Shown here: piece by piece, positions 21,989-48,008 of the stretch
How the letters are laid out: every line of letters starts with the position of its first letter
Position numbering within the stretch: position 1 is the first letter of the stretch
DNA from: Candidatus Poribacteria bacterium
Lineage (GTDB): Bacteria > Poribacteria > WGA-4E > WGA-3G
Reading direction: 5' to 3'
DNA: 64,000 nt
NCBI GenBank assembly: GCA_965116815.1
Contig: OZ220722.1
Span: 671,050-735,049, forward strand
Position numbers and translations under genes: made by a program
Notes under the pieces: model-generated
Told to the model about the DNA's origin: nothing
Databases searched by the model: none
The model's input: only the letters and a program-made list of their open reading frames with translations

Positions 21989-22227
21989 ATTATATTTCGA
22001 TTTATGCACCATTTCTGCTCCAAAATTGCGTCTATAAATAAATCGTAAAGCGAGGATTTAAATTTAATCCTCTATCAGACTTACATTGTGGTAAACAAGT
22101 TTTTTAAGATTACGTTAAGTGTTGTATCATTCTTGAACCTAAAGAATATCCCTAAGATTGACGTAATCCCCCAAACATGTTATTATCTTTCAAGACTAAC
22201 GGATTTGAAAAAAAGGAGGACTTCACA

Positions 22228-23508: not shown

Positions 23509-23536
23509 GTGCCCTAAAACGCAAGGAGGTGTTGAC

Positions 23537-24823
23537 ATGAACCGTACCTATATGACATCAAAGTTAGCCGTACTTGTATTGATGCTTTTGTCTGTTATAA
23601 CAGGTATTGCTGCAGCGGAAGAGATGCTTAGTGGATTTTCAGGGAAAGTTGTTGATTTGGAGGGGAAGGGTGTTGCTAACTTTACATTCGCCATTCAACC
23701 TATGCGATTACACAACGGCTCTCTGGTGCCAGATGATGAATTTATGCCGTGGCGAGCTGATTCAACGGGTGCTTTCACTGTCAGGGACATCCAGCTACGT
23801 CTGATTCAATTAAGCGCACTTCCCGACATCCCGCTGGATGTGTTCGATCCGGAGAAAGGGAAGATTCCGTTGGAATTTAGGTATCGCAGAATTGAGTCGG
23901 ATAAGAAAATCATCTCTATTCAAATAGGGGCGGTCACCCTCTTTAATATGGGTGATCCGGACTTTTATGAGGGACTCACGTTTGCCCTCAAACCCGGTGA
24001 GAATATTGAAAACGTTAAGGTTATTGTCAAACCGAGGCTTCGGATTCGTGGACGAGTTGTTTATGCCGATGGCGCGCCCCTCGCCAACGCCGGATTAGAT
24101 TTTGACATGGAATGGCGACATGAGACCCGTCTGAATCATAGTGGGAACAGCGGGGCACACCCTTTTACGGATGCCGATGGATACTTTGTCCAATATGTAG
24201 ATAAACCGGGGTTTTACACACTGTCCGTGGAACATAATGATCTTTCTGCAGGCGCAGGTCCCTTTCTGATCAAAGATGATGTGCAACCTGAGGAAATTGT
24301 CTTTACACTTGAAGGTAAGCCGGATGTTGTCGAACTGCCTCCCCCGAAGATTAAAGCCTCCGGTAAAATAAAATTCCAAGAACCATCCACGCCACCAGCG
24401 AAAGGTGTGTGGGTAATTAATCCTGCGAATGGACACGCTTACAAAAGGATTCAGTGTGAGGATTGGCACGATGCCCAGCGCAAGGCAGTTGAGGAAAGGG
24501 CTCACCTTGTCTCAATCAACGATGAATCGGAACAACACTGGGTTCAGGTAATTTTCGGAGGGGACCCTTTTTGGATCGGACTTACGGATGCGAAAAAAGA
24601 GGGTGAGTGGCAATGGGATAGCGGTGAACCCGTCACTTACACTAATTGGGTGGTCCATCCGATCCTCCGTGATAAATCTCCGGACACCGAGAAAGACTAT
24701 GTTGTGTTCACCTTTATCAGAGGAGAGTGGCAAGCTATCAGTCTCAAGAGCCTGTTATGGGCGGAAATCGCAAAACAGGCAGTCATCGAAAAGGACGGAT
24801 TGGTTTCTACTATCGATGAGTAG
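23537..24823 (+). CDS. Array member A2: same architecture (signal peptide, 2x CarbopepD_reg-like, CTLD).
   Basis: RBS AAGGAGG. FSGKVVDLEGKGVANF, LRIRGRVVYADGAPLAN. CTLD HAYKRIQCEDWHDAQRKAVEERAHLVSINDESEQHW, WIGLTDAKKEGEWQWDSGEPVTYTNW. Confidence 0.8.
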   Translation: MNRTYMTSKLAVLVLMLLSVITGIAAAEEMLSGFSGKVVDLEGKGVANFTFAIQPMRLHNGSLVPDDEFMPWRADSTGAFTVRDIQLRLIQLSALPDIPLDVFDPEKGKIPLEFRYRRIESDKKIISIQIGAVTLFNMGDPDFYEGLTFALKPGENIENVKVIVKPRLRIRGRVVYADGAPLANAGLDFDMEWRHETRLNHSGNSGAHPFTDADGYFVQYVDKPGFYTLSVEHNDLSAGAGPFLIKDDVQPEEIVFTLEGKPDVVELPPPKIKASGKIKFQEPSTPPAKGVWVINPANGHAYKRIQCEDWHDAQRKAVEERAHLVSINDESEQHWVQVIFGGDPFWIGLTDAKKEGEWQWDSGEPVTYTNWVVHPILRDKSPDTEKDYVVFTFIRGEWQAISLKSLLWAEIAKQAVIEKDGLVSTIDE

Positions 24824-24898
24824 GGCCTAATACTGTAGAAAAAGGCGACCTTGTCTTGTAAGCGCGTATAGTGAGCTCAAACCAGAGGGGATAGAAAA

Positions 24899-26158
24899 AT
24901 GACACGTCTGTATTTCGGAAAGAGAATTCTCACATTTTTTATCGGAATTGTCGCACTTTTCCTTTTAAGTGCGTCGGAGAGCGGCGCACAGAACGATGTG
25001 TTGACCACACTCTCCGGTCGCGTTATTGATGCAGCTGGACAGCCAATTGCCGGACTTACGGTAGCTATTGTTCCTGTCCAAGACGGTCATGGCGCATGGT
25101 TTCCAATTGAGTTTGAGGTCGAAGAAGGTGGACGGCAAGGCGATCCGATGGCGTTCCAAGGGGAAACCGATGCAGCAGGACGTTTCGTCATTACCGATGC
25201 CATTGTTGGTCCCGTGTTGTTAGGGTTGTTTCCGTATAATGGGCCGGAGATGGAAATTTTGAATGTCCAAATCGGCGATATGTTTCTCTATGCGCCTAAA
25301 GAATCGTGGGGACGTGGCGTTATATTTTCTGTGGAGCCGGGTAAGCGCATTGAAGACCTTGAGGTCACAGTGCAGCCTTTTCTACAACTCCGGGCGAAAG
25401 TTCTAAGGATGGACGGGAGTCCACTCGCCAATGCACAACGTATCAGGGTCGGGTTAAGGCGACTCAGTTTAGATGGAGAATACGATGGTAGTGGGAGATG
25501 GAACGCGGAGACGGATGACGAAGGAAACTTTGCACGATATATGACAAGATATATGAATGGTCCCATATTTTACTTCATGTCTGTGACATATCAGGAGCAT
25601 CAAGCGCAGTTAGATCCAATTGTGGTCAAACCCGAAGATCTAATTCAGGAGGTGGTCTTCACTTTCGAGGTCCCACTGCCCCCTGATATACCCCAGAACG
25701 CTCCTCGCGGTTTTCATGCTGGCGCGCCAGCGCGATTTGGTGGCGGGCTTAACGCGAAAGGTGTATGGGTTATCAATCCAGCAAATGGTCACGCCTACAA
25801 AAAAATCCGTTTTAACGGCGTGGAAGATGCTATTGCGCAAGCAGCCAAGGAAGATGCTTATCTCGTCACGATTAACGATGAAGCGGAACAAAACTGGTTG
25901 GATCAAGTTTTTGTTGCACATCGCGCTTTAATTGGGCTTAGTGATGTTGAAGAAGAGGGGCAGTGGCAATGGCATAGTGGGGAACCCGTCACATATACAA
26001 ATTGGGCAATGTATGAACCACAGGATACCGACAAAGGCGATGAAGATTATGTCATCCTGTTCGCCGACCAGTGGGTGGACGTTGGTCCCGGAGATGTCCA
26101 ATGGCGTTTTATTCAGTCCGCACTCCTTGAAAAAGAAGAAGCGTCTCTAAAGAAGTAA
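24899..26158 (+). CDS. Array member A3: same architecture.
   Basis: Signal peptide ending SGAQ. LSGRVIDAAGQPIAGLTV. CTLD HAYKKIRFNGVEDAIAQAAKEDAYLVTINDEAEQNWL...LIGLSDVEEEGQWQWHSGEPVTYTNW. Confidence 0.8.
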   Translation: MTRLYFGKRILTFFIGIVALFLLSASESGAQNDVLTTLSGRVIDAAGQPIAGLTVAIVPVQDGHGAWFPIEFEVEEGGRQGDPMAFQGETDAAGRFVITDAIVGPVLLGLFPYNGPEMEILNVQIGDMFLYAPKESWGRGVIFSVEPGKRIEDLEVTVQPFLQLRAKVLRMDGSPLANAQRIRVGLRRLSLDGEYDGSGRWNAETDDEGNFARYMTRYMNGPIFYFMSVTYQEHQAQLDPIVVKPEDLIQEVVFTFEVPLPPDIPQNAPRGFHAGAPARFGGGLNAKGVWVINPANGHAYKKIRFNGVEDAIAQAAKEDAYLVTINDEAEQNWLDQVFVAHRALIGLSDVEEEGQWQWHSGEPVTYTNWAMYEPQDTDKGDEDYVILFADQWVDVGPGDVQWRFIQSALLEKEEASLKK

Positions 26159-26176
26159 ACCCTAAAGGAGAAAACC

Positions 26177-27607
26177 ATGAAATGTTCGGAGTCTAAAAGG
26201 CACGTTTTGTTATTTTTGATGGTGATAGTCGCACTTTTTATCGGTTTCATTTCGCACGCTGTTGCGCAGAAAGATACGGGGAGCGTTACCGGACGCGTTG
26301 TCGATCTGAGTGGAAACCCAGTTGTCGAGTTACCGATATTTATTGCTCCTCTTTATGTTGATGGCACTGGATACATGCGGACAGTAATTTTACCGTATGA
26401 GCACGCACAGTTGCGCCGTGCACGCACAGACCGAGAAGGTCGATTTTCCGTAACGGATGTCCCCTCGGGTCCTGTGTACATCGGTGCCCTTCCGGACGAC
26501 ATAGATAAACGCCTGCCTGAAGACTTTGAAAGGGTTGTAGATGAGTTCACATCCGGCAGAGATTGGGGGAAGACCACAGCAGACGAGATAGAGGCATTCG
26601 ATTCCAGTAACTTCGGCATGACTTCAGAGGATTTTGAGCCAGACGTTGAAATTTTGTTCATTCGCGTCCAAGGATTAACCCTATACCCGCGTACCGATTT
26701 TGTTGAAATCGCGTTCGGTCTCAAATCCGGCGCGCTTATGAAGGATATGGAAGTCACAGTGCAACCTCGGATGCGAGTTCGCGGACGCGTCCTTTTCAAA
26801 GACGGAACACCACTTGCCAATACACGCGTCGGCCTCTACACTCATGCTCGTACTGTAAGTGGCGGCTCCATCGGCTCCGGTGGAAATTTATGGACGGACA
26901 CTGACGGCTATTTTGTTTATTATATAGATGAGAAGGATGATGCTGCGTTCTACACGTTTTCTGTGGAATACCAAGATCTTGTGGTAGAGGCTGAGCCGAT
27001 TCGCCTTGATCCAGGAGACCGGTTCGATGGGTTGACATTGACGTTTGATAGCGAACCGATTCCACCCAACCAACTGCCTCAAAAAATCGAAACTGACGAG
27101 TTGGAACCGCTTTCACCCGCATGGGAAGTCCCGTCAGTACCAACAGCATCTCATGACGTGTGGGTCGTCAATCCCGAAAATGGACACGCCTATAAAAGGG
27201 TTCACTGCGAAACTCGCGATGATGCGATTGCCCAGGCAACCGAAGAGAAGGCGCATCTCGTCGCGATTAATGACGCTGCGGAGCAGGCATGGTTGGAAGC
27301 GGTTTTTGGACACAAGTTCTATTGGATCGGACTCAGCCGCGTTCCTACAACAGGGACACTTTCTAAGCGAGCAAAAAAATGGTGGCAATGGGATAACGGC
27401 GATCCTATCACCTATGCCAACTGGTTACCCAATGAGTTCTTTTCTGAATCCTTGGATGCCAGTGAAAGAGACTATGCCGTCATGACGCTCTCTGATGGAA
27501 AGTGGTATGCGGTGAATCCCGACAGTGTTATCTGGGATATGACGGAGATGGCGATCCTTGAAAAAGCAGATGTACTTGACAATCCATCCGCTGCAGAAAG
27601 ACGATGA
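26177..27607 (+). CDS. Array member A4: same architecture, with a longer linker.
   Basis: RBS AAAGGAG. VTGRVVDLSGNPV, RMRVRGRVLFKDGTPLANTRV. CTLD HAYKRVHCETRDDAIAQATEEKAHLVAINDAAEQAWL...WIGLSRV...WWQWDNGDPITYANW. Confidence 0.8.
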   Translation: MKCSESKRHVLLFLMVIVALFIGFISHAVAQKDTGSVTGRVVDLSGNPVVELPIFIAPLYVDGTGYMRTVILPYEHAQLRRARTDREGRFSVTDVPSGPVYIGALPDDIDKRLPEDFERVVDEFTSGRDWGKTTADEIEAFDSSNFGMTSEDFEPDVEILFIRVQGLTLYPRTDFVEIAFGLKSGALMKDMEVTVQPRMRVRGRVLFKDGTPLANTRVGLYTHARTVSGGSIGSGGNLWTDTDGYFVYYIDEKDDAAFYTFSVEYQDLVVEAEPIRLDPGDRFDGLTLTFDSEPIPPNQLPQKIETDELEPLSPAWEVPSVPTASHDVWVVNPENGHAYKRVHCETRDDAIAQATEEKAHLVAINDAAEQAWLEAVFGHKFYWIGLSRVPTTGTLSKRAKKWWQWDNGDPITYANWLPNEFFSESLDASERDYAVMTLSDGKWYAVNPDSVIWDMTEMAILEKADVLDNPSAAERR

Positions 27608-27723
27608 ACACGACACATAACACCTTATTGCTTTTTTTATATCAACACCCTCGTATTTTTGGCAAAATTATGCACCAGTTTTACACCTCATAAGCGTCAC
27701 TATAGGGCAATCGGAGGTAATTC

Positions 27724-29775
27724 ATGAAAAACATCGATGTTGAACTCATTCACCGTGTGCTTGATGGCGATGATACCGCTTTCACTGAACTTGTGAAAAA
27801 ATACCAAAAGCCCGTTCACACGCTGGTGTGGCGTAAAATTGGAGATTTCCACATCGCCGAGGAAATTACGCAGGATACATTCTTAAAGGCGTATCAGGAA
27901 TTGGCAAAGCTGAAAAAACCACAGAGTTTTGCGAGTTGGCTTTATGTGATCGCTGCGAACCACTGCAGTACATGGCTGCGTAAAAAGCGTTTACAGACGC
28001 AGTCGCTTGAGGAAACGAGCAGTGCTCGATTAGAAAAGGCGACATATTCGGGGTATGTTGTTGAAGAAAATGAGCGGACAGCAGTGGAAGCACAACGCGA
28101 AGTCGTGAAAAAATTGCTTGCGAAACTCCAAGAGAGTGAACGCACAGTGCTCACACTGCATTACTTCGGTGAGATGTCCAGTACAGAGATTGGCGCGTTT
28201 TTAGGTGTGTCAGCAAATACGATTCGGAGTCGTCTCCGTCGTGCGCAGCAGCGTTTAAGGAAAGATGAACCGATGATTCGAGAAGCCTTGGCCAATTTTC
28301 AAATCACGCCGCATCTCACAGAAAATATCATGCGTGAGATTGCGCGTATGAAACCCGCTGCGCCGTCTGGCAGTAAACCGCTGGTGCCGTGGGCAATTAC
28401 GACGATTTCTACAGTAGCGGTGGTGCTTTTGATGTTAGGCGTTGGAAGCCATCAATACTTATCACGTGTCCAAAAGCCGTATAGTTTCGACGCAATGTCA
28501 GAGATGAGGGTTGAACTAATTGAGGCACCTGTTGTGCTAAATCTTGAGTCCAAACCGGGTGTTCAGACTCAACTTGGCGACAACGATGCAACCGGTAGAG
28601 ACAATAAGACGCATCAGAACTCTGATGCGACGCTATTTTCCTCCACCTCCGGTCACATCCTTAATGAAGCAGGCGAACCGGTTTCTGGGATCAAGATAGC
28701 GATTACACCTGTCGTAGATGGTAAAGGGGCTTGGTTTCCGATTCATGTGCAAGAGCGTGCTCTTGAAGATACGCGTGAACGCCACGTGGAGAGCGATGCA
28801 GAGGGGCGTTTTACTATCACCGGTGACATCTCCGGTCCTGTGTTGTTGTCGCTATTTCCGCTTCGCAGCTCGTCAGTCCGTATTTTAAGGGTTCAAATCG
28901 GCGGATTATTTTTCTATCCAAGCGGAATGATGGAGCGTGGAATTGTATTTGCCCCACCCCCGGGTGAATCCATTGCGAATATTGAAGTTACGGTACAGAG
29001 TCCGCACATCCGAGGGAGAGTACAACGCATAGATGGGAGACCAATCGCCAATGCAAAAATCAAACGCCGGTTGCGGACAGTAAGTCAGCACGGTGAGTCT
29101 TCTGGTTCTGGCAGTGTTCATACGGACGCTGAAGGATACTTTTCACACTATGTGGACAAGGATATAGAGCAACCAACATTTTACATGTTTTCTCTGACCT
29201 ATCAGGGGCAGACCGTCAATGCAGACCCGATTGTGCTTAAACCCGGGGATCCAACACACGACATCGTTTTTACCTTTGATAGTTTACCGGAAAAGCCTTT
29301 ACAAGCGCGGCGTGGAGTTTTCGCGAGCGCGTCCGCTTCAGTGGGTTATCGTGCACAAAATGTATGGGTGATAAAACCGGACTTTCCCCTACAAACTGGC
29401 GGGCATGCTTACAAGAAAATTAAGTGTGAGAATCGGGAAGATGCGAGAGCCCAAGCCGCCGCCGAAGGGGCGTATCTCGTCACAATTAACGACGAGGCAG
29501 AGCAGAAGTGGTTGCAAGCTGTCTTTGGAAATCAACCGATTTGGATTGGACTTAACGATGTTGCAACAGAAGGAGAATGGCAATGGGACAACGGCGAACC
29601 GCTTACCTATACCAACTGGGAATTTCAGGAACCCCATGACCCGAACAATGAGGCTGAGGATTATGTCATCCTTAATCCTTTAGGGAAATGGGAGGACAGT
29701 AACGCCAGAAATCCAAAATGGGGCTGGATTCGGACAGCACTCATTGAGAAGGAAACGTTACCCGTGAAGAAGTAG
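27724..29775 (+). CDS. Array member A5: ECF sigma-70 factor (regions 2 and 4) fused through one TM helix to an extracytoplasmic module of 2x CarbopepD_reg-like domains plus a CTLD (683 aa).
   Basis: RBS GGAGG. Sigma region 2 is DDTAFTELVKKYQKPVHTLVWRKIGDFHIAEEITQDTFLKAYQEL...WLYVIAANHCSTWLRKKR. Region 4 is SSTEIGAFLGVSANTIRSRLRRAQQRLRK. The TM helix is LVPWAITTISTVAVVLLMLGVG. After it come SGHILNEAGEPVSGIKI, and the CTLD HAYKKIKCENREDARAQAAAEGAYLVTINDEAEQKWL...WIGLNDVATEGEWQWDNGEPLTYTNW. Confidence 0.8.
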   Translation: MKNIDVELIHRVLDGDDTAFTELVKKYQKPVHTLVWRKIGDFHIAEEITQDTFLKAYQELAKLKKPQSFASWLYVIAANHCSTWLRKKRLQTQSLEETSSARLEKATYSGYVVEENERTAVEAQREVVKKLLAKLQESERTVLTLHYFGEMSSTEIGAFLGVSANTIRSRLRRAQQRLRKDEPMIREALANFQITPHLTENIMREIARMKPAAPSGSKPLVPWAITTISTVAVVLLMLGVGSHQYLSRVQKPYSFDAMSEMRVELIEAPVVLNLESKPGVQTQLGDNDATGRDNKTHQNSDATLFSSTSGHILNEAGEPVSGIKIAITPVVDGKGAWFPIHVQERALEDTRERHVESDAEGRFTITGDISGPVLLSLFPLRSSSVRILRVQIGGLFFYPSGMMERGIVFAPPPGESIANIEVTVQSPHIRGRVQRIDGRPIANAKIKRRLRTVSQHGESSGSGSVHTDAEGYFSHYVDKDIEQPTFYMFSLTYQGQTVNADPIVLKPGDPTHDIVFTFDSLPEKPLQARRGVFASASASVGYRAQNVWVIKPDFPLQTGGHAYKKIKCENREDARAQAAAEGAYLVTINDEAEQKWLQAVFGNQPIWIGLNDVATEGEWQWDNGEPLTYTNWEFQEPHDPNNEAEDYVILNPLGKWEDSNARNPKWGWIRTALIEKETLPVKK

Positions 29776-29806
29776 GTCTTATGCTTTATTCCAAAGGAGA
29801 GAAATT

Positions 29807-31138
29807 GTGAAATGTTTGAAATCCTGTAACAAAGTTTTTGCATTGTTCATAATAATTGGTTCGCTTTTCATTGAGTTTGCCTCACACAGCATTGCTGACG
29901 AGAAAACAGGAACTTTCTCAGGACGTGTTGTTGATGTGGAAGGAAATCCTGTTGCGAAATTGCCAGTTATGATTGTACCTGCTATGGTTATGGGGTACGG
30001 AATTCACACATTGTTTCCAAGGCAGTATTCTACTGTGCGACGCACACTGACAGATGCGGACGGGCGATTTTTCATTACGGATATTGCGCCGGGAATTTCC
30101 TATTTTGGTGTACTTCCTTACGATGTAGAGGAGATGGAGGATGATGATTTTGACCCCGATATTGAGGTTTTATCTCTCCGCATCCAAGGGATAACGTTCT
30201 ATCCGCGTACCGATTACGAACAGATTGGGTTTAGTGTCAAACCGGGAACCCATATTGAGAATGTAGAGGTCACAGTTCAACCTCGGATGCGAATTCGGGG
30301 ACGCATCGTTTTCAAAGATGGAACACCGCTTGCGAGTGCACGGTTCAACCTCCGCTTCCATTCTAAGACTGTGGATGGGACAGGCAACCGGCAGTCCGGA
30401 GGCAGACCGCGAACAGATACTGATGGCTATTTTGTCTATTATCTGGATGAGAAAGATGATCCTGCATTCTACACATTTTCTGTGGAATATCGAAATCTTA
30501 CCGCAAAGGCTGGACCGATCCGCATTAATCCAGGGGAGCGTCTTGACGGATTGACGTTGAAATTCGATAGTGAACCGATTTCCCCACAACCATCGTCTCA
30601 TACTGTTCCACAACCATTATCTCAGACAAAGACACTTGATCGTCCATCTGCTGCTACGCCACCGCCGAGAAAATCAATGCCGGTCTCTGAAGAGGTGTGG
30701 ATAGCCAATCCCGCGAATTTGCATGCCTACAAAAGAATTCATTGTGAGACCCGCGAAGATGCTGTTGCCCAAGCAAGGGAAGAAAATGCGCATCTTGTCA
30801 CTATTAACGACGCTGCTGAGGAAGCGTGGTTGGTAGAGGTTTTTGAGCGTAACCTCTACTGGATCGGACTCAGCCGCGTCCCACCGATAGGCACGGATTC
30901 TAACACAACGCAATGGCGATGGGAGAATGGTGAACCTATCACCTATGCGAACTGGTTACCCGATTATATCTTTGGTGAGTCTTTGGATGTCAGTAAGAGG
31001 GTCTATGCTGTTATGATGACGTTCACCGATGGAAAATGGTATGCCGTTGGTCCTGACAGTCTCGTTTGGCGTATGACGGAGATGGCGATCCTCGAAAAAG
31101 CATACCTGCTTGATAATCCGTCCGCTGCAGAGAAATGA
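29807..31138 (+). CDS. Array member A6: same architecture (GTG start).
   Basis: RBS AAAGGAGAG before GTG. FSGRVVDVEGNPVAKLPV, RMRIRGRIVFKDGTPLASARF. CTLD HAYKRIHCETREDAVAQAREENAHLVTINDAAEEAWL...WIGLSRV...QWRWENGEPITYANW. Closest to A4. Confidence 0.75.
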   Translation: MKCLKSCNKVFALFIIIGSLFIEFASHSIADEKTGTFSGRVVDVEGNPVAKLPVMIVPAMVMGYGIHTLFPRQYSTVRRTLTDADGRFFITDIAPGISYFGVLPYDVEEMEDDDFDPDIEVLSLRIQGITFYPRTDYEQIGFSVKPGTHIENVEVTVQPRMRIRGRIVFKDGTPLASARFNLRFHSKTVDGTGNRQSGGRPRTDTDGYFVYYLDEKDDPAFYTFSVEYRNLTAKAGPIRINPGERLDGLTLKFDSEPISPQPSSHTVPQPLSQTKTLDRPSAATPPPRKSMPVSEEVWIANPANLHAYKRIHCETREDAVAQAREENAHLVTINDAAEEAWLVEVFERNLYWIGLSRVPPIGTDSNTTQWRWENGEPITYANWLPDYIFGESLDVSKRVYAVMMTFTDGKWYAVGPDSLVWRMTEMAILEKAYLLDNPSAAEK

Positions 31139-31234
31139 TAGTTGTAAAAGATGTTCCTGTTCATATATGAATATATCTTGTAGGGGCAGCCCTTGTGGCT
31201 GCCCGCTGTTCCTGTTCTAAAAGGAGAATTTATA

Positions 31235-32467
31235 ATGAATCTGCAAAGTTTCAAACAAAATTTTGGATTACTTTTGTTGGTGATGCTACTCTCCCTTCTG
31301 GTATCGTCGTCTGTTGTTGCCCAACAAGGTGCGACGATTTCTGGGCGCGTCGTTGATGAGCTGGGGAATCCGGTTGTCGGTACTTCGGTAGCACTCCATC
31401 GGTATAAAGCCATAGATGGTGATCAGAGAGGACGATTTGTGCCTTTCTGGCAAAAGCCGGTCGATTTAGATGGTCATTTTTCCTTCGTAAATATTGCGCC
31501 AACGGAGTCCGTTAGTTTTATCGTAGAAGATGAACGGACTAAAGGAAAAATCCTTTCTATCCAAATGGGTGAGCTCACCCTTTATCCGGGGGACCATCCA
31601 CATTTTGGTAAAGTAAGATTTTCCTTGGAAGCAGGGATGGAAATCGAAGACGTTGTCATCACGGTGAACACAAATATTCCGCCACAAGTCCGCGCGCGAG
31701 TCGTCTCTGCTGACGGTACACCGCTTGTCAACACAACTATATATGTTGCAGTGCAACGTAAAAGTCTGGATGGAACGGGCTCTGGCGGTTCTGGTGGCAC
31801 AAGACAGACCGATGCAGAAGGATATTTCGTAGAAGACCTGCAGGTGGACGATAATCCCAGATTCTATGTGCTTGGTGTTAAATATCAGGGGCTTTTTGCG
31901 AAAGCACCTCCTTTCATTTTACATGAAGGGCAACCGCAAGTTCATCTCCTTTTGACACTCAAAGGTAATCCAGATCCGCTTGCACGACCACCAGTACGTC
32001 CGCTGGTAGGTCCACCGTCCGCTGCATTAACGACGTTTCTTGATCCACCAACGGTGTGGATTGTGAACCCCGCGAATGGACACGCTTACAAAAAGATTCA
32101 TTGTGACGGTGTAACGGATGCGACGACCCAAGCCGCTGCAGAAAATGCGTATCTCGTTGCCATCAATGATGAAGCAGAAAATGAATGGTTGGAGGAAATC
32201 TTTGGGCGAGAACGTTTTTGGATTGGACTCAACGATGCCGCCGAAGAAGGACAGTTGGCTTGGGATAGCGGTGAACCTGTTACCTATACGAACTGGGGTG
32301 AACATGAACGAGCAGGTAACAACACTGAGGTGAATGACTACGTTATCTGGGGATTTGGCGGTAGATGGGAGATGGTCGCACTTGGAAGTGGGCATGCACA
32401 TTTTGTCAAAACAGCAATTCTCGAAACGACAGATGTCCCTGTTGAAACATCACCTGAGAATAATTAG
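31235..32467 (+). CDS. Array member A7: same architecture.
   Basis: RBS AAAAGGAGA. ISGRVVDELGNPVVGTSV. CTLD HAYKKIHCDGVTDATTQAAAENAYLVAINDEAENEWL...WIGLNDAAEEGQLAWDSGEPVTYTNW. Confidence 0.8.
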   Translation: MNLQSFKQNFGLLLLVMLLSLLVSSSVVAQQGATISGRVVDELGNPVVGTSVALHRYKAIDGDQRGRFVPFWQKPVDLDGHFSFVNIAPTESVSFIVEDERTKGKILSIQMGELTLYPGDHPHFGKVRFSLEAGMEIEDVVITVNTNIPPQVRARVVSADGTPLVNTTIYVAVQRKSLDGTGSGGSGGTRQTDAEGYFVEDLQVDDNPRFYVLGVKYQGLFAKAPPFILHEGQPQVHLLLTLKGNPDPLARPPVRPLVGPPSAALTTFLDPPTVWIVNPANGHAYKKIHCDGVTDATTQAAAENAYLVAINDEAENEWLEEIFGRERFWIGLNDAAEEGQLAWDSGEPVTYTNWGEHERAGNNTEVNDYVIWGFGGRWEMVALGSGHAHFVKTAILETTDVPVETSPENN

Positions 32468-32540
32468 CGACAACCCAACATTGGGTTTGCTTCCAGTTCG
32501 CCCCAATCTACATTTGTCTATTCTATAAGGAGAACTTACA

Positions 32541-33878
32541 ATGAATCGCTTAAGTTTCACACGTATTGCATACCTTTTCGGAGTTGTAATTGTACTCTCT
32601 CTCATTGCATCCGTTCCTTGTATCGCACAGGACGAGACAACACTCTCTGGTACCGTCCTTGATACAGAGGGGAAACCGATTGCTGGATTTGCCATTGGTC
32701 TTTTACAAGGTTCTCTCATATCGAAGACTGATGAAGAAGGGGCTTTCACCTTTACCAATATCCCTGCCGGACCGGTTCAAATTGCGATTCCAGCGCAGCC
32801 GTCCAAAGAAAATGAGAAGCCTGTATTCAACTTTGAGGCAGATGATGAGATCGTTTCAATCAAAATCAAGGGTGTAACGCTTTATCAGGACATGCGTCCG
32901 CCTTTCGGCGGTATCACATTCGGGGTCAAATCGGGCAGTCATATTGAAGACATAACGGTTACCGTACGTCCACGGATGCGAATTCGGGCGAGAGTCGTTT
33001 TCAAAGATGGGAAACCGCTAACGAATACTTCTGTTGCCACGCGAGTCGAAGGCGGTGGTGGTACGTCGACTGGAGGGGCTACTACGGACTCTGAAGGATA
33101 TTTTGTGCATTATATGGATAACGACGATGTTCCGGCACACTACACGGTCACCGTAAAATATAAAGGGCTCTCGGCGAAATCAGAGCAATTTTTGCTTGAA
33201 AAGGGTGCGCGCTATGATGATTTAGTCTTGACGCTTGATGGCGATGTACCGCCTGCTGCGCCACAAACGGAATCTCTGCCGAAAGTTTTGGATAAATTGA
33301 CTGGTGGATCGACACCATCTGAGAAACCGACACTCACCGAAACAAACCGCTCTGTACCGACTAACAAGGGACAAGTTAATATTCGAGAGGTGGAAGTAAA
33401 GCCTCGTGGAACAGATACTAAACCTGCTAACTCCGTTAGGCAGATGCGACCGCCGTGGGAGAAAGATGCGTGGGCTGTGAACCCGGCGAATGGACACGCC
33501 TATAAAAAGATTCGGTGCGACAGTCTGGATGAGGCACGAGATCAAGCCGCTGCGCAAGGTGCACACCTCGTCGCGATTAACGACGCAGCGGAGCAGGAAT
33601 GGATTTCGGGACTCTTTGGCAATCATCTCTATTGGATTGGACTCAGTGATGCTGAAAACGAAGGGGAATGGGCATGGCAGAACGGTGAGCCTCTCACCTA
33701 TACGAATTGGGGACCCAAGCACAGTTTCCCGCGGAGTCCACTTTCACCGGAAAAGAAGGACAGTGTTGTTATGACGTTTGCGAATGGACAGTGGCATGCC
33801 GTTGGTCCCGGTGACCTTTTTTGGCATAAGACGAAGATGGCAATCCTTGAAAAAGCAAACGTGCTTGATGGGAAATGA
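32541..33878 (+). CDS. Array member A8: same architecture.
   Basis: RBS AAGGAG. LSGTVLDTEGKPIAGFAI, RMRIRARVVFKDGKPLTNTSV. CTLD HAYKKIRCDSLDEARDQAAAQGAHLVAINDAAEQEWI...WIGLSDAENEGEWAWQNGEPLTYTNW. Confidence 0.8.
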   Translation: MNRLSFTRIAYLFGVVIVLSLIASVPCIAQDETTLSGTVLDTEGKPIAGFAIGLLQGSLISKTDEEGAFTFTNIPAGPVQIAIPAQPSKENEKPVFNFEADDEIVSIKIKGVTLYQDMRPPFGGITFGVKSGSHIEDITVTVRPRMRIRARVVFKDGKPLTNTSVATRVEGGGGTSTGGATTDSEGYFVHYMDNDDVPAHYTVTVKYKGLSAKSEQFLLEKGARYDDLVLTLDGDVPPAAPQTESLPKVLDKLTGGSTPSEKPTLTETNRSVPTNKGQVNIREVEVKPRGTDTKPANSVRQMRPPWEKDAWAVNPANGHAYKKIRCDSLDEARDQAAAQGAHLVAINDAAEQEWISGLFGNHLYWIGLSDAENEGEWAWQNGEPLTYTNWGPKHSFPRSPLSPEKKDSVVMTFANGQWHAVGPGDLFWHKTKMAILEKANVLDGK

Positions 33879-33934
33879 TATTTCTCGGACTCCGGTTTAT
33901 TTGGCATCTCAATATTGAAAAAAGGAGAATCTAC

Positions 33935-35326
33935 ATGAATCTTCAGCGTCTCGGTCTAAAACTTTGTATCCTCGTCGGGATTGTAGCGTTTTTCTTTACT
34001 ATTGCTGCTGACGTGCAGGCAGATCGCCCACAAATTCACGCGCGGGTCGTCCATGCTGACGGGACACCGCTTGTGAACGCGGATATATATGTTGCGGTGC
34101 TACGCAAAAGCTTGGATGCAGGCGGCTCCGGAGGTACAGGAAGTACAATGCAGACCGATGCCGCGGGATACTTTGTGGAAACTCTTAACGTAGGTAATAG
34201 CCCAAAATTCTATGTGGTTGGTGTTGCGTATCAGCGGCATCTCGCGAAAGCACCCCCTTTTATTTTGCAGGAGGGACAACCGGAAGTTCATCTACTCTTG
34301 ACACTTGATGAGAATCACGTTCCGCCAGATAGATGGGGATTTGATCAAGTACATACTACATTAAAAGCATTTCTTGAACCCCCAACGGCGTGGGTAGTGA
34401 ATCCTATAAATGGGCACGCTTACAAAAGGATTTATTGTCACGATGTAATGGATGCGATGACCCAGGCTATTACAGAAGGTGCTTATCTTGTTTCCATTAA
34501 CGATGAAGCAGAGGAGATATGGATACAAGGAGTCTTTGAACCAGATAGTTTTTGGATCGGACTCAGCGATGTCACTAAGGAGGGGCAGTGGGTCTGGCAC
34601 AGTGGTGAACCGGTTACGTATACCAACTGGGGAGAGAATAAACAAAACGGTGGTAACACCGAGGCGAACGATTACGTTATCTCTGATTTTGGTGCCGAAT
34701 GGTTGTCGGTTGCGCCGGGAGATGCCCCTTTTGTCGAAGAGGCAATCCTCGAAAAAGCGGAGTTACCCGTTAAGACGCAATCTGATAAACAAACCGATGT
34801 CCAGCCAACTGGTGTCTCAATACCACCGAATAAAACTATCGCCACTCAAGCCAGTCGTTCTGTCCCACCTCAGAAAATAAAGTCCCTTTTAGAGATAGGT
34901 GTATGGGCTGTGAACCCCGCAAATGGACACGCGTACATAAAGATTTGGTGCGAAAGTCTGGACGATGCGAGAGATAGTGCCGCTGCCCAAGGGGCACACC
35001 TCGTCGCTATTAACGATGTAGCGGAACAGCAGTGGCTTTTAGGGCTCTTTGGGAATCACCTCTATTGGATTGGACTCAGTGATGCAAAAAAAGAGGGTGA
35101 ATGGGTATGGCAGAACGGTGAACCACTTACTTATGAAAATTGGGGATCCAAGTATAAATTTCCGCGTAGTGCTCTCTCACCGGAAGAGAAAGACAGTGCT
35201 GTTATGACGTTTGCGAATGGACAGTGGCATGCCGTCGGTCCCGGTGATCTGCTCTGGAATACGACTCGACAGGCAATCCTTGAAAAAACAGACGTGTTTG
35301 ACAGTCCTCCTGTCAAAGAAAAATAA
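33935..35326 (+). CDS. Array member A9: chimeric paralog. It has a signal peptide, only the second beta-sandwich domain, and then two CTLDs in tandem.
   Basis: RBS AAAAGGAGA. N-terminal half RPQIHARVVHADGTPLVNADIYVAV...FILQEGQPEVHLLLTL is ~80% identical to the A7 interior. CTLD-1 is HAYKRIYCHDVMDAMTQAITEGAYLVSINDEAEEIWI...WIGLSDVTKEGQWVWHSGEPVTYTNW. CTLD-2 is HAYIKIWCESLDDARDSAAAQGAHLVAINDVAEQQWL...WIGLSDAKKEGEWVWQNGEPLTYENW, about 85% nt identity to the A8 CTLD. Confidence 0.75.
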   Translation: MNLQRLGLKLCILVGIVAFFFTIAADVQADRPQIHARVVHADGTPLVNADIYVAVLRKSLDAGGSGGTGSTMQTDAAGYFVETLNVGNSPKFYVVGVAYQRHLAKAPPFILQEGQPEVHLLLTLDENHVPPDRWGFDQVHTTLKAFLEPPTAWVVNPINGHAYKRIYCHDVMDAMTQAITEGAYLVSINDEAEEIWIQGVFEPDSFWIGLSDVTKEGQWVWHSGEPVTYTNWGENKQNGGNTEANDYVISDFGAEWLSVAPGDAPFVEEAILEKAELPVKTQSDKQTDVQPTGVSIPPNKTIATQASRSVPPQKIKSLLEIGVWAVNPANGHAYIKIWCESLDDARDSAAAQGAHLVAINDVAEQQWLLGLFGNHLYWIGLSDAKKEGEWVWQNGEPLTYENWGSKYKFPRSALSPEEKDSAVMTFANGQWHAVGPGDLLWNTTRQAILEKTDVFDSPPVKEK

Positions 35327-35430
35327 TGGTTTTGAATCTACAATTGTTTCGTTCCGTGTTCACTTCTTCCCAGACAATTTTTTCCAATTAATTTGTCAGT
35401 CATTCCCACAAAGTCTACAGAGACATTCAG

Positions 35431-35479
35431 TTTTCCTGTAGGAGCGACCTTCCAGTCGCTATACCTCGGCTGTTTCTCC
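35431..35479. repeat. Copy 2 of the ~49-bp repeated element (see 21940-21988), 125 bp upstream of array member A10.
   Basis: Seen directly; shares the core ctgtaggagcgacct. Confidence 0.5.
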
Positions 35480-35605
35480 AGTCCAAGATGGACGCGTGTA
35501 CAAAGCGGACCGAGTAACACTTGTGGGAGAGGTTTCTTGTGGAAATCCGCAGAAACACCCAAGCAAAAACATCCGAATCTCTTCCCCCTAAGAAGGAAAT
35601 GGCTT

Positions 35606-36352
35606 ATGAGCAGCCGAAAGCTTTTGGATAAAATAGTGGTCATCCCCCTTGTTATTTTGGTTTCTGCCTTGCTGGGTTGTGGTGAAACTATAGAAACTAT
35701 AGAAATAGACAGAGCGAGTTTTTCAGGACGCGTTGTTGATGAAACTGGAAATCCGATTGCTGGACTTGCGTTAGTCATTGTACCCTGTGAAGTTGATGAT
35801 GCCAGTATAGCGGTTTACGACGCGCAGACCAATGATACAGGTCATTTCTCTATCACGGGTATCTATCCCGGAAAAGCTGATTTCATGTTAGTGCCTGAGT
35901 ATCAGAATGGTCTACCTCTTGAGCCGGAATATCAACTTCTTTCCTTTAAAATCGGGGTTTCTGATTACCATCCGAAAGACCTATCCCTTGATCCTTGCAC
36001 TCAGGACACCTTTTTTATCGGGTCGGGTGCGCGAATCGAAAACGTAGAGGTCACGGTGCGACTCCGGATGCGGATTCGAGCGAAAGTCGTTTTGGAGGAT
36101 GGTACACCCTTGGCAGACAAAAAGGTTAGCCTCAACATAAGGGCGTTCGATTCGCAAAGAAGTCGTGTTGTTGGAGGTATCCAGGGATCTGTGCAGACCG
36201 ATGCTCAAGGATACTTTGTGCAGTATGTAGATAGGAGCGAGGCAATTGGCTATAGGGTGTCAGTTGAATATAAATGGCTTTGCGCAACATCGGAGATATT
36301 TATACTCGGAGTTAGGGAACGTCGCGAAGATCTGATTTTGAAGTTAAGTTGA
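35606..36352 (+). CDS. Array member A10: short lipoprotein form with the two CarbopepD_reg-like beta-sandwich domains only and no CTLD.
   Basis: Lipobox LLGCGE (signal VVIPLVILVSALLGC). FSGRVVDETGNPIAGLAL, RMRIRAKVVLEDGTPLADKKV. It ends at the conserved EDLILKLS boundary where the other members continue into the linker and CTLD. The ORF-track start (35393) is too far upstream; the ATG at 35606 has a weak RBS. Confidence 0.65.
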   Translation: MSSRKLLDKIVVIPLVILVSALLGCGETIETIEIDRASFSGRVVDETGNPIAGLALVIVPCEVDDASIAVYDAQTNDTGHFSITGIYPGKADFMLVPEYQNGLPLEPEYQLLSFKIGVSDYHPKDLSLDPCTQDTFFIGSGARIENVEVTVRLRMRIRAKVVLEDGTPLADKKVSLNIRAFDSQRSRVVGGIQGSVQTDAQGYFVQYVDRSEAIGYRVSVEYKWLCATSEIFILGVRERREDLILKLS

Positions 36353-36464
36353 AGTTGCCAAGTGCTCCCAAGTGAAATATGACACTTTCAAGACTATAAA
36401 CCGGAAGTTTCAGAAGTGAGACCGGTGTGTCTTGGGTTATCCATATAAAGGAGAAGAGTTAACT

Positions 36465-37262
36465 ATGAGTCGTCAAAACTTCTTACATGAAATGGTGGTG
36501 ATTTTCTCTGTAATTGCAATCTGTACCCTGTTGGGTTGTGGTGAAACTGAGGATACGTCCTCCGCTATGTTGTCAGAGACCGTGATGGGGGGAGACACAA
36601 CGAGTTTTTCGGGGCGTGTTGTTGATGAAGATGGGAATCCGGTTGCTGGGCTTGCCTTGATCATTCAGCTTCGCGAAGTTGACGATAATACTGGAGCGCG
36701 GACGTACGGTCCTAATTTAGAAGCGAAGACCGATGATGCAGGACATTTCTCTATCACAAATATTCGTCCCGGGCAATTTCAATTCATGTTGGCGCGTGAC
36801 TATGGGAACAGTCTGCTTTTTGAAACGGAATATCAACTCCTTTCTGTCAAAATCGGGGCTTTCGCCTATCATCCGAGTGACCGGTTCCCTCCTGCTTTTA
36901 CTAAAGATACTCTTTCTATCACTCCAGGCGCGGAAATAAAAAACGTAGAGGTCACGGTGCGGCTCCGAATGCGGATTCGCGCGAAAATTGTTTTTGCGGA
37001 TGGCACCCCCTTAGCAAACAAGGAAGTTAGGATCGATATAAAAGGGCGGGATTTACACGGGGATGGGAGTGCAAAAATTGGTACTACATGGGAGACTGAT
37101 GCCCGAGGGTACTTTATACAGTACATGGATGCAAATAGGACGAGATCCTATACGGTGTCAGTGGAGTATAATGGGCTTTCCGCAACGTCGGAGAAGTTTG
37201 TACTCAAAGTCGGGGAACGCCGTGAAGATTTGATTTTGAAGTTGTCGGGTCCTCCTCAGTAA
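36465..37262 (+). CDS. Array member A11: short lipoprotein form (two beta-sandwich domains, no CTLD). Close paralog of A10.
   Basis: RBS AAGGAGAAG. Lipobox LLGCGE. FSGRVVDEDGNPVAGLAL, RMRIRAKIVFADGTPLANKEV. Ends ...EDLILKLSGPPQ. Confidence 0.7.
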   Translation: MSRQNFLHEMVVIFSVIAICTLLGCGETEDTSSAMLSETVMGGDTTSFSGRVVDEDGNPVAGLALIIQLREVDDNTGARTYGPNLEAKTDDAGHFSITNIRPGQFQFMLARDYGNSLLFETEYQLLSVKIGAFAYHPSDRFPPAFTKDTLSITPGAEIKNVEVTVRLRMRIRAKIVFADGTPLANKEVRIDIKGRDLHGDGSAKIGTTWETDARGYFIQYMDANRTRSYTVSVEYNGLSATSEKFVLKVGERREDLILKLSGPPQ

Positions 37263-37308
37263 AGATGGTGGTAACGCCACTAAAACGTATGAATTAGGTT
37301 TGGTCGCC

Positions 37309-38388: not shown

Positions 38389-38424
38389 TGTTCTCCTCTA
38401 AGCGTTCGTGTTTATCATGCGTTA

Positions 38425-47963: not shown

Positions 47964-48008
47964 GCATTCAGATTTTACGTTGGGAACTATCTCTGTGAGG
48001 TAAAACAG

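What the first reader, a model, noticed from the sequence alone, without database searches (positions are those of the whole stretch)
33935..35326. Chimeric array member with two tandem CTLDs documents recombination within the array
A9 lacks the first beta-sandwich domain. Its N-terminal half is ~80% nt identical to the interior of A7. Its first CTLD is A7-like. After a short linker it carries a second CTLD that is ~85% nt identical to the A8 CTLD. This is direct evidence that the array evolves by unequal crossing-over and gene fusion, and it creates a bivalent lectin.
Basis: seen in the sequence. Interest (0 to 1): 0.55.

Follow-up and report, generated by a model that had tools for sequence, protein, structure and literature searches.

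The report
Ancient fused two-lectin-domain gene, Poribacteria
One gene in a tandem family of secreted lectin-like proteins of a sponge-symbiont bacterium (Candidatus Poribacteria) is a real fusion of two neighbouring family members, but the fusion is old, conserved in many species and under purifying selection, so it is not a recent recombination event or an assembly error.

Summary
The mosaic is real. A9 (33935-35326) has a signal peptide, only the second beta-sandwich domain, an A7-type C-type-lectin-like domain (CTLD), a 39-residue linker and an A8-type CTLD.

The gene is not a recent chimera. Proteins with the same architecture occur in 63 of the 120 best database hits (47-92% identity). 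They sit at the syntenic locus in more than 12 Candidatus Poribacteria genomes, including closed chromosomes. Some of these arrays lack A7 and A8. A second, relocated paralog family has the same layout.

Both CTLDs are under purifying selection (dN/dS 0.12-0.21). Both junctions fall at non-homologous positions. This fits a duplicated A7-A8 gene pair fused by two in-frame deletions better than unequal crossing-over.

A quartet-site test suggests old gene conversion between the A8 CTLD and A9's second CTLD, but none since the closest relatives split.

"Bivalent lectin" is unproven. Neither CTLD keeps the EPN/QPD + WND calcium/sugar motif or the canonical disulfides.

This is ordinary gene-family evolution in an undescribed, fast-changing poribacterial CTLD array.

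The parts
33920..33934 (+). Ribosome-binding region (AAAAGGAGAATCTAC) in front of the true A9 start codon
   Evidence: 23 of 27 nt match the region upstream of A7's start, 31219-31245.
33935..35326 (+). A9 gene: 463 aa plus stop, with the layout signal peptide - d2 - CTLD1 - linker - CTLD2
   Evidence: ORF list, Pfam, domain HMMs and orthologs that start at MNLQ.
33935..34021 (+). Sec-type signal peptide (aa 1-29, MNLQRLGLKLCILVGIVAFFFTIAADVQA). It is A7-like and is not a lipobox.
   Evidence: A7 and A9 N-termini share MNLQ(S/R)(F/L)..L across genomes. AF2 predicts a helix at aa 3-26 with low pLDDT. The cleavage site is inferred.
34022..34315 (+). Single beta-sandwich domain d2 (CarboxypepD_reg/transthyretin-like), A7-type. 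The d1 domain found in all other CTLD-bearing members is deleted in frame.
   Evidence: HMM d2 match at aa 27-127. 71% aa identity to A7 d2 against at most 40% to others. A9 'DRPQIHARVV' matches the A7 d1/d2 boundary 'NIPPQVRARVV'. AF2 pLDDT is about 90.
34379..34774 (+). CTLD1 (aa 149-280), A7-type
   Evidence: HMM match. 59-61% aa and 71% nt identity to the A7 CTLD. The clade A7 + A9-CTLD1 + F-CTLD1 has 98% bootstrap. dN/dS is 0.21 against the L001 ortholog.
34775..34891 (+). Inter-CTLD linker (aa 281-319). It consists of the former A7 C-tail (ELPVKTQSDKQ), then about 5 residues of unknown origin, then a remnant of the A8 d2-CTLD linker (GVSIPPNKTIATQASRSVPPQK ... IKSLLEIG).
   Evidence: Alignment of A9 linkers, A7 tails and A8 linkers across genomes. 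AF2 pLDDT is 27-35, so the linker is predicted disordered. dN/dS is 0.56.
34892..35305 (+). CTLD2 (aa 320-457), A8-type
   Evidence: 82% nt and 78% aa identity to the A8 CTLD. The clade A8 + A9-CTLD2 + F-CTLD2 has 99% bootstrap. dN/dS is 0.12.
31235..32467 (+). A7, the closest paralog of the N-terminal two thirds of A9 (signal peptide - d1 - d2 - CTLD)
32541..33878 (+). A8, the closest paralog of A9's linker remnant and second CTLD (signal peptide - d1 - d2 - long linker - CTLD). It lies directly after A7 in every genome that has either gene.
22177..37262 (+). The whole 11-member tandem array A1-A11, which lies between a MR_MLE gene (-) and OTCase/DHODH genes (-)
   Evidence: The locus is syntenic in Poribacteria genomes.

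Best explanation
A9 is an old, fixed gene fusion inside a poribacterial tandem array of secreted beta-sandwich + CTLD proteins.

Proposed origin:
1. The adjacent A7-A8 gene pair was duplicated as a unit.
2. Two non-homologous, in-frame deletions then reshaped the copy. One removed domain d1 between the signal-peptide end and the start of d2. The other removed everything from the A7' stop codon to the middle of the A8' d2-CTLD linker.
3. The result is signal peptide - d2 - CTLD(A7-type) - linker - CTLD(A8-type).

This happened before the sampled Poribacteria species diverged, and probably before a second, relocated two-CTLD family ('F') split off. Since then the gene has been kept by purifying selection, in some lineages even after the A7-A8 pair was lost from the locus.

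The second CTLD looks more A8-like than the first looks A7-like for two reasons. The A8-type CTLD evolves more slowly at the protein level. In addition, it has probably exchanged sequence with the A8 CTLD by gene conversion on deep branches.

Functionally (inferred, not shown), A9 is a Sec-exported protein that carries two different CTLD binding modules on a flexible linker. That would make it a hetero-bivalent binder of unknown ligands, such as host or matrix glycans or proteins. It is not a canonical Ca2+-dependent lectin.
For: - Mosaic: with the figures given in the observation check.
- Conservation: 63 of the 120 best database hits have the d2-CTLD-CTLD layout at 47-92% identity and full coverage. 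A9 orthologs lie at the syntenic MR_MLE...OTCase locus in L001, L002/L015, L005-L010, L012-L014 and L024, which include closed chromosomes OZ240248, OZ253447, OZ241378 and OX639973.
- Independence from A7/A8: the arrays in L002, L005, L009, L010 and L012 have A9 but no A7 or A8. L016-L020 have A7-A8 but no A9. A7 and A8 are adjacent in every locus that has them.
- Junctions: the same junction sequences occur in all orthologs. The signal peptide and 'TDNRPQ(I/V)RARVV' match A7. 'LPVKT.SD.Q' matches the A7 tail 'VPVET..EDN*'. 'TG.STPP.KTT..QT.RSVP' matches the A8 linker 'TGGSTPP.KPT..QTNRSVPT'.
- Domain trees: A7+A9n+Fn has 98% bootstrap and A8+A9c+Fc has 99%.
- Age: paralog dS values are of the same order (0.83-1.03 for A7/A9, 0.72 for A8/A9). 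They exceed ortholog dS (0.22-0.63). dN/dS is 0.12-0.39 for all A9 domains.
- Gene conversion: for the A8/A9-CTLD2 pair, 'concerted' sites exceed the noise class. The counts (orthology|concerted|other) for the window genome (W) are 8|18|1 against L013 (p=4e-5) and 3|25|6 against L014 (p=4e-4). Against the close relative L024 they are 43|1|1. The A7/A9-CTLD1 control shows concerted roughly equal to noise.
- Fold: AF2 gives a beta-sandwich plus two CTLDs (pTM 0.75). Foldseek hits mannose-receptor-family tandem CTLDs at E 1e-11 and single CRDs at TM 0.72-0.79.
Against: - The NJ trees place the F-family second CTLD outside A8 + A9-CTLD2 (99%). A single fusion without later exchange predicts A9c + Fc. 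This needs later conversion, or a rate artefact, to be reconciled.
- A8 and A9c are not reciprocally monophyletic (bootstrap 10-14%).
- The 'concerted' sites are mostly third-codon positions and are dispersed rather than forming a tract. Lineage-specific codon drift is therefore not fully excluded, although the A7/A9n control argues against it.
- Only distance trees were possible. No maximum-likelihood or reconciliation analysis was run.
- The direction of change (fusion versus fission) rests on parsimony.
- Export, ligand binding and expression are untested.
Confidence: 0.78

Rival explanations
1. One reading: A9 is a recent chimera made in this genome's array by unequal crossing-over between A7 and A8. 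It would then be a live record of ongoing recombination.
For: A9 sits directly after A7-A8, and its two halves are most similar to those two genes.
Against: - Orthologs with identical architecture and junctions exist in more than 12 species-level genomes, some without A7 or A8.
- A9 is 85-92% identical to its orthologs but only about 60-78% identical to A7 and A8.
- Paralog dS is 0.7-1.0.
- The longest exact run shared with A8 is 36 nt, and with A7 13 nt.
- Both junctions are at non-homologous positions.
Confidence: 0.03
2. Assembly artefact: A8-like and A7-like reads were collapsed or mis-joined to make a false two-CTLD ORF.
For: Arrays of paralogs are prone to mis-assembly. No read data are available for this window.
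Against: - The same gene is present in independent assemblies, including closed long-read chromosomes and 3.5-6.7 Mb contigs.
- The frame is intact, and dN/dS is 0.12-0.37.
- The paralogs are at most 82% identical, which is too divergent to collapse.
Confidence: 0.01
3. Reverse direction: the two-CTLD protein is ancestral. A7 and A8 arose from it by fission, with d1 (A7) and signal peptide + d1 + d2 (A8) acquired from other array members.
For: - Some arrays have A9 without A7 or A8.
- The F family shows that the two-CTLD form is old.
- The A8 CTLDs nest within a paraphyletic A9-CTLD2 group in the nucleotide NJ tree.
Against: - The d1-d2-CTLD layout is shared by all other paralog clades (A1-A6) and by the divergent array in L022.
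- Fission would need two precise domain gains.
- A9's linker looks like a shortened A8 linker and a read-through A7 tail.
Confidence: 0.1
4. The fusion is old, but the second CTLD was replaced from A8 (or the fusion arose independently) in the array lineage and in the F lineage. There would then be more than one fusion or replacement event.
For: - The topology (Fc,(A8,A9c)) has 99% bootstrap.
- The quartet test shows excess concerted sites.
- The A9 second CTLD of L014 nests among A8 CTLDs.
Against: - A9 and F share the same d1 deletion boundary ('PQ.IRARVV' directly after the signal peptide) and the 'LP(V/I)KT' join, which favours one origin.
- This rival overlaps with the gene-conversion component of the best explanation.
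Confidence: 0.12

Closest known systems
The single-CTLD paralogs A7 and A8 of the same array (poribacterial signal peptide - d1 - d2 - CTLD family, which has no NCBIfam model)
   Same: A9 has the same signal-peptide type, the same d2 domain and the same CTLD subtypes. It shares junction-flanking motifs with them and lies in the same operon-like + strand array.
   Different: A9 lacks d1 and carries two CTLDs of different subtypes. It forms its own conserved ortholog group, and there is a relocated sister family F.
Animal mannose-receptor family (MRC1, Endo180/MRC2, PLA2R, DEC-205): tandem canonical CTLDs
   Same: These are the best sequence and structure matches in the PDB. The profile search gives PLA2R at E 7e-40, DEC-205 at 1e-33 and MRC1 at 2.5e-27. 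Foldseek alignments span two consecutive CTLDs at E about 1e-11. The WIGL and W..W..G.P..Y.NW core motifs are conserved.
   Different: - A9 has no CysR or FNII domains, no membrane anchor, and only two CTLDs.
- It has one Cys per CTLD, so the canonical disulfides are absent.
- It has no EPN/QPD + WND motif. The corresponding residues are ENK...WLS in CTLD1 and KFP...WHA in CTLD2.
- It is bacterial. The similarity is at domain level only.
Collectin/SRCL, CD23 and langerin-type single carbohydrate-recognition domains
   Same: Each A9 CTLD has this fold (TM 0.72-0.79, 19-29% identity).
   Different: The calcium/sugar ligands are not conserved in A9. These known proteins oligomerise through coiled coils, whereas A9 places two unlike domains in one chain.
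Domain-shuffled members of bacterial tandem paralog arrays in general (duplication followed by deletion fusion and gene conversion). This comparison rests on established knowledge of gene-family evolution.
   Same: Duplication of a gene pair, fusion by in-frame deletions, and later homogenisation between neighbouring repeats.
   Different: Nothing in the mechanism is unusual. The specific features are the CTLD content and the poribacterial host.

Membership tests
CTLD superfamily / Pfam PF00059 Lectin_C | Match to the family HMM above the gathering score | tested here: met
   87.8 bits against a cut-off of 22.6, E 1e-24, in two separate stretches.
CTLD superfamily / Pfam PF00059 Lectin_C | CTLD fold: two helices, two antiparallel sheets, and the WIGL plus W...W hydrophobic core | tested here: met
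   The AF2 model has pTM 0.75, and the CTLD cores have pLDDT of about 80-92. Foldseek gives TM 0.72-0.79 to solved CRDs. W207/I208/G209/L210, W219/W221, and W378/I379/L381, W390/W392 are invariant or nearly invariant in 60 homologs.
CTLD superfamily / Pfam PF00059 Lectin_C | Two conserved disulfides (four Cys) of the canonical short-form CTLD | tested here: not met
   Each CTLD has only one Cys (RIYC, KIWC).
C-type lectin in the strict sense (Ca2+-dependent carbohydrate-recognition domain) | EPN or QPD tripeptide plus WND motif, which form Ca2+ site 2 | tested here: not met
   The aligned positions read ENK...WLS in CTLD1 and KFP/PRS...WHA in CTLD2. The HMMER alignments to CRDs mostly end at 'YxNW'. 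Array members A3 and A5 keep EPQ/EPH...WVD/WED.
C-type lectin in the strict sense (Ca2+-dependent carbohydrate-recognition domain) | Demonstrated sugar binding | not testable with these tools
   This needs a glycan array or ITC with recombinant domains.
Mannose-receptor family | CysR (ricin-B) + FNII + 8-10 CTLDs + transmembrane anchor | tested here: not met
   Pfam finds only Lectin_C and a weak CarboxypepD_reg match. The protein is 463 aa with two CTLDs.
Poribacterial signal peptide - d1 - d2 - CTLD array family | Position in the syntenic array between MR_MLE and OTCase/DHODH | tested here: met
Poribacterial signal peptide - d1 - d2 - CTLD array family | Both beta-sandwich domains d1 and d2 present | tested here: not met
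   d1 is absent in A9 and in all its orthologs. A9 is a derived sub-architecture of the family.
Product of unequal crossing-over (non-allelic homologous recombination) | Junctions lie within sequence that is homologous between the two parents and produce hybrid domains | tested here: not met
   The junctions are signal-peptide end | d2 start, and A7 C-tail | A8 linker. The parental sequences are not homologous at either join, and both CTLDs are complete.
Gene conversion between array paralogs | Excess of sites that group paralogs by lineage over the noise class, with a control pair | tested here: inconclusive
   For A8/A9-CTLD2, concerted versus other is 18 vs 1 and 25 vs 6 (p=4e-5 and 4e-4). 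The A7/A9-CTLD1 control gives 6 vs 9 and 10 vs 7. The sites are mostly third positions and dispersed, and no tract could be defined.
DGR (diversity-generating retroelement) variable CTLD protein | A near-identical template/variable repeat pair with adenine-specific differences, and a reverse transcriptase nearby | tested here: not met
   No repeat within 22000-37400 exceeds 85% identity, and none of 100 nt or more exceeds 81%. The presence of a reverse transcriptase elsewhere in the window was not examined.

The most novel reading that the evidence does not exclude
The array as a whole could be a sponge-symbiont-specific extracytoplasmic recognition system built on animal-type (PF00059) CTLDs.

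- One member (A5) wires the same d1-d2-CTLD ectodomain to a fused ECF sigma factor, so it would act as a one-component sensor.
- The secreted paralogs, including the hetero-bivalent A9, would bind or cross-link host or matrix ligands.
- Duplication, fusion, linker-length change and gene conversion would keep diversifying the repertoire between symbiont species.

In that picture A9 would be a conserved adaptor that joins two different ligands, not an evolutionary accident.
Probability: 0.2. Interest if true: 0.6.

Novelty: new variant of a known kind. Interest (0 to 1): 0.3.

Why it matters
As evidence for ongoing recombination, the finding matters little. The fusion is old, and its mechanism (duplication, deletion fusion, some gene conversion) is textbook.

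It does show three other things.
- Candidatus Poribacteria carry a large, rapidly reshuffled array of secreted proteins with canonical animal-type CTLDs. Neither the searchable literature nor NCBIfam describes this family.
- A two-CTLD member is one of its most widely retained components. It is kept even where its parental genes are gone, and it is present a second time elsewhere in the genome. This argues that linking the two unlike CTLDs has a selected function.
- The family is therefore a reasonable candidate for symbiont-host or symbiont-matrix recognition in sponges, and the two CTLDs are a concrete pair of domains to test for ligands.

Tried and rejected
- Exact-sequence look-up of A9 found nothing. 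The closest relative is 92% identical (P0001).
- NCBIfam has no model for A9 or A8.
- Three literature searches found no description of poribacterial CTLD proteins. The search terms were Poribacteria + C-type lectin; lectin / eukaryote-like; and CTLD + sponge symbiont + carboxypeptidase regulatory-like.
- A first protein-level test for concerted evolution was negative. It compared same-genome with different-genome identity (78.3 vs 77.5% for A8/A9c, 62.2 vs 62.3% for A7/A9n). Only the nucleotide quartet test showed a deeper-branch signal.
- The nucleotide NJ tree did not group paralogs by genome, except that the L014 A9 second CTLD fell among A8 sequences.
- The promoter/terminator consensus scan of the array was uninformative. 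Terminator-like hits were below the shuffled expectation, and the promoter-like hits could not be tied to gene starts.
- I considered a DGR target and rejected it, because there is no near-identical repeat pair.
- I considered a lipoprotein. A9 has 'LKLC', but orthologs have G at that position and the -1 residue is wrong, so I rejected it.
- I considered whether d1 was lost by recombination between the homologous d1 and d2 'RVV' starts. I rejected this because A9 retains the d2-upstream 'TDNRPQ' boundary residues.
- I checked whether the 97-100% amino-acid identity of the flanking MR_MLE gene meant recent transfer. Nucleotide identity is 85-89%, so it reflects purifying selection only.
Full report
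**What is in the window.** Between a minus-strand MR_MLE gene (20573-21676) and minus-strand OTCase/DHODH genes (37309-39354) lie eleven plus-strand paralogs, A1-A11, at 22177-37262. The standard member has a signal peptide, two CarboxypepD_reg/transthyretin-like beta-sandwich domains (d1, d2), a linker and one Pfam Lectin_C domain (CTLD). A5 carries an N-terminal ECF sigma factor and a transmembrane segment. A10 and A11 lack the CTLD. The finding concerns A9.

**Checking the observation.**
- The ORF is 33875-35326, but the true start is ATG 33935. It follows an AAGGAG site that matches the A7 upstream region at 23 of 27 nt, and all orthologs start MNLQ.
- HMMs built from the array find in A9 no d1, one d2 (aa 27-127) and two CTLDs (aa 149-280 and 320-457). 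Pfam scores Lectin_C at 87.8 bits in two stretches.
- BLASTN within the window gives two strong, non-overlapping matches. A9 34028-34754 matches A7 31682-32426 at 70.6% over 745 columns. A9 34892-35301 matches A8 33459-33868 at 82.0% over 410 ungapped columns. All other array matches are at most 71% and shorter.
- By domain, A9 d2 is 71% identical in protein to A7 (others at most 40%). CTLD1 is 59% to A7 (others at most 53%). CTLD2 is 78% to A8 (others at most 52%). The two CTLDs of A9 are 45% identical to each other.
- The mosaic is therefore real and far beyond chance.

**Not recent and not an artefact.**
- A search of the 5.8-billion-protein collection returned full-length homologs with 100% coverage, from 92% down to about 47% identity. 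All named hits are Candidatus Poribacteria. Of the 120 best hits, 63 have the d2-CTLD-CTLD layout.
- I fetched loci by exact protein look-up and by a scan of GTDB species genomes.
- Array content varies widely:
  - A1 A2 A9 A11 (L002/L015)
  - A1 A2 A1' A9 (L005)
  - A1 A2 A1' A5 A6 A9 (L009, L010)
  - A1 A2 A1' A3 A4 A5 A6 A9 A11 A7 A8 (L006)
  - ...A9 A9' A11 A7 A8 A11' (L007)
  - A1 A2 ... A7 A8 without A9 (L016, L018-L020)
  - A3 A4 A5 A6 A7 A8 A9 A10 A11 A11' in the 92% relative (L024)
- Three things follow. A9 is an ortholog group of its own and occurs in arrays that have no A7 or A8. A7 and A8 are adjacent wherever they occur, so they behave as a unit.
- A second family of two-CTLD proteins ('F', P0049-P0066, 47-50% identical to A9) sits in an unrelated context (L004).

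**Junctions.**
- Across genomes the A9 N-terminus (MNLQSFRQKLG...AQTDNRPQIRARVV) combines two A7 pieces. These are the A7 signal peptide (MNLQSFRQNLG...AQ) and the A7 d1/d2 boundary (KTDIRPQVRARVV). Domain d1 was therefore removed cleanly and in frame.
- After CTLD1, A9 continues 'LPVKT.SD.Q', which corresponds to the A7 C-terminal tail 'VPVET..EDN*'.
- About five residues later comes 'TG.STPP.KTT..QT.RSVP', which corresponds to the first part of the A8 d2-CTLD linker ('TGGSTPP.KPT..QTNRSVPT').
- 'QIKSLLEIGVWAVNP' then corresponds to the end of the A8 linker ('RQMRPPWEKDAWAVNP').
- Some orthologs have shortened the inter-CTLD linker further, to about 6 residues.
- The simplest history is duplication of the A7-A8 pair followed by two deletions. 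Neither deletion endpoint pair lies in sequence that is homologous between the partners, and both CTLDs are complete rather than hybrid. A9 is therefore evidence for deletion-type fusion, not for unequal crossing-over.

**Phylogeny and rates.**
- Bootstrapped NJ trees of 72 CTLDs give 98% support for A7 + A9-CTLD1 + F-CTLD1 and 99% for A8 + A9-CTLD2 + F-CTLD2. Every two-CTLD protein is thus 'A7-type then A8-type' (broader tree).
- Mean CTLD identities are 83% within A8, 81% within A9c and 78% between A8 and A9c. The corresponding values are 72% within A7, 72% within A9n and 62% between A7 and A9n. The A8 type simply evolves more slowly in protein sequence.
- Nei-Gojobori estimates:
  - Paralog dS is 0.83-1.03 for A7/A9 and 0.72 for A8/A9.
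  - Ortholog dS is 0.22-0.42 against L001 and 0.35-0.63 against L002.
  - dN/dS is 0.37 (d2), 0.21 (CTLD1), 0.56 (linker) and 0.12 (CTLD2).
- Both CTLDs are therefore maintained by selection, and the duplication is older than the sampled speciation events.

**Recombination signal.**
- Protein-level comparison of same-genome and different-genome paralog identity showed nothing. At nucleotide level, however, A8 and A9-CTLD2 within a lineage (82-85%) are as similar as, or more similar than, A8 orthologs between lineages (75-79%).
- I ran a four-sequence informative-site test. The counts (orthology | concerted | other) for A8/A9-CTLD2 in the window genome (W) were:
  - against L013: 8|18|1
  - against L014: 3|25|6
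  - against L007: 7|18|6
  - against close relatives L024 and L001: 43|1|1 and 31|6|2
- The A7/A9-CTLD1 control shows concerted roughly equal to noise (for example 18|6|9 and 18|10|7).
- This fits past gene conversion between the A8 CTLD and the second CTLD of A9 on deeper branches, with none recently. It would also explain why F-CTLD2 falls outside A8 + A9c (99%).
- Caveats: the concerted sites are mainly third positions and are dispersed, and only distance methods were available. I rate this component as probable, not shown.

**Structure and likely function.**
- AlphaFold2 with a 60-sequence alignment (pTM 0.75) predicts an N-terminal helix (the signal peptide), a confident beta-sandwich (aa 33-123), a CTLD, a disordered 40-residue linker (pLDDT about 30) and a second CTLD.
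- Foldseek and profile searches against the PDB hit the tandem CTLDs of the mannose receptor, Endo180, DEC-205 and PLA2R first. Single CRDs follow, such as SRCL and CD23 (TM 0.72-0.79).
- These are canonical-type CTLDs by sequence and fold. However, each has a single Cys, so the canonical disulfides are absent.
- The positions of the EPN/QPD and WND Ca2+/sugar motifs read ENK...WLS in CTLD1 and KFP...WHA in CTLD2. By established knowledge of CTLDs, domains without these motifs often bind proteins or other ligands, or bind sugars by other means.
- 'Bivalent lectin' is therefore unproven. My working model (inferred) is a Sec-exported protein that presents two different binding modules on a flexible tether.

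**Comparison with what is known.** NCBIfam has no model for A8 or A9. Full-text searches found no description of poribacterial CTLD proteins. The closest relatives are the array paralogs themselves. The closest characterised proteins are animal multi-CTLD receptors, and A9 fails their defining architecture. The evolutionary process is ordinary.

**Verdict.** The finding rates low to moderate interest on its own. The surrounding array, with its ECF-sigma-fused member and rapid turnover, is the more interesting object.

Noticed in passing
window 27724-29775 (+), A5: A5 fuses an N-terminal ECF sigma factor (Sigma70_r2 + r4) and a transmembrane segment to the same d1-d2-CTLD ectodomain as its secreted neighbours. 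The fusion is conserved in L001, L006 and L024. It resembles sigma/anti-sigma hybrids such as IutY (ECF243) and SCO4117 (ECF52, which has a periplasmic carbohydrate-binding domain) described in PMC8999054. This suggests that the CTLD module is a sensor domain.
   Followed up: partly
window 35603-36352 and 36465-37262 (+), A10 and A11: The last two array members have d1-d2 but no CTLD. They carry a lipobox (LLGC / LLGC-GET), so they are probably lipoproteins. Close relatives L001 and L024 have three such genes instead of two.
   Followed up: partly
loci L001-L024 (syntenic MR_MLE ... OTCase interval): The array ranges from 4 to at least 12 genes, with different member sets and orders, among Poribacteria species. 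The flanking genes stay at 80-93% nt identity. Array orthologs are much more diverged (A1 about 65-75% nt, about 50-70% aa).
   Followed up: yes
L007 10461-11762 and 11796-13178: Two adjacent A9-type genes occur in one genome. One has a linker of about 6 residues between the CTLDs and the other a linker of about 34 residues. Short-linker and long-linker forms are both widespread (432-aa and 460-466-aa classes).
   Followed up: partly
L004 10001-11377 (P0049 family): A second conserved two-CTLD family (47-50% identical to A9, same d2-CTLD-CTLD layout) lies outside the array. Its neighbours are PSCyt2/PSD1, Laminin_G_3-like and GH32 genes.
   Followed up: partly
window 24899-26158 (A3) and 27724-29775 (A5): Only A3 and A5 retain near-canonical Ca2+/sugar-site residues (EPQ...WVD and EPH...WED). 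All other members, including A7, A8 and A9, have lost them.
   Followed up: no
L014 10001-11395: The second CTLD of this A9 ortholog nests among A8 CTLDs in the nucleotide NJ tree. It also gives the strongest concerted-site excess, which suggests a lineage-specific conversion from A8.
   Followed up: partly
L005 9173-10489, L006 2867-4183, L009 4970-6292 and others ('A1'' members): A third A1-like paralog, absent from the window, has an insertion that splits its CTLD HMM match at about model position 57.
   Followed up: no
window 13504-17499 (-) and 1714-9042 (-): A 1331-aa ORF has no Pfam match at E<=1e-5. A 2442-aa ORF was not examined. Both lie upstream of a GH172/DUF2961 gene, two xylose-isomerase-like TIM-barrel genes and the MR_MLE gene.
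   Followed up: no
window 48001-50000: GC content drops to 0.398 here, against about 0.47-0.51 elsewhere in the window.
   Followed up: no
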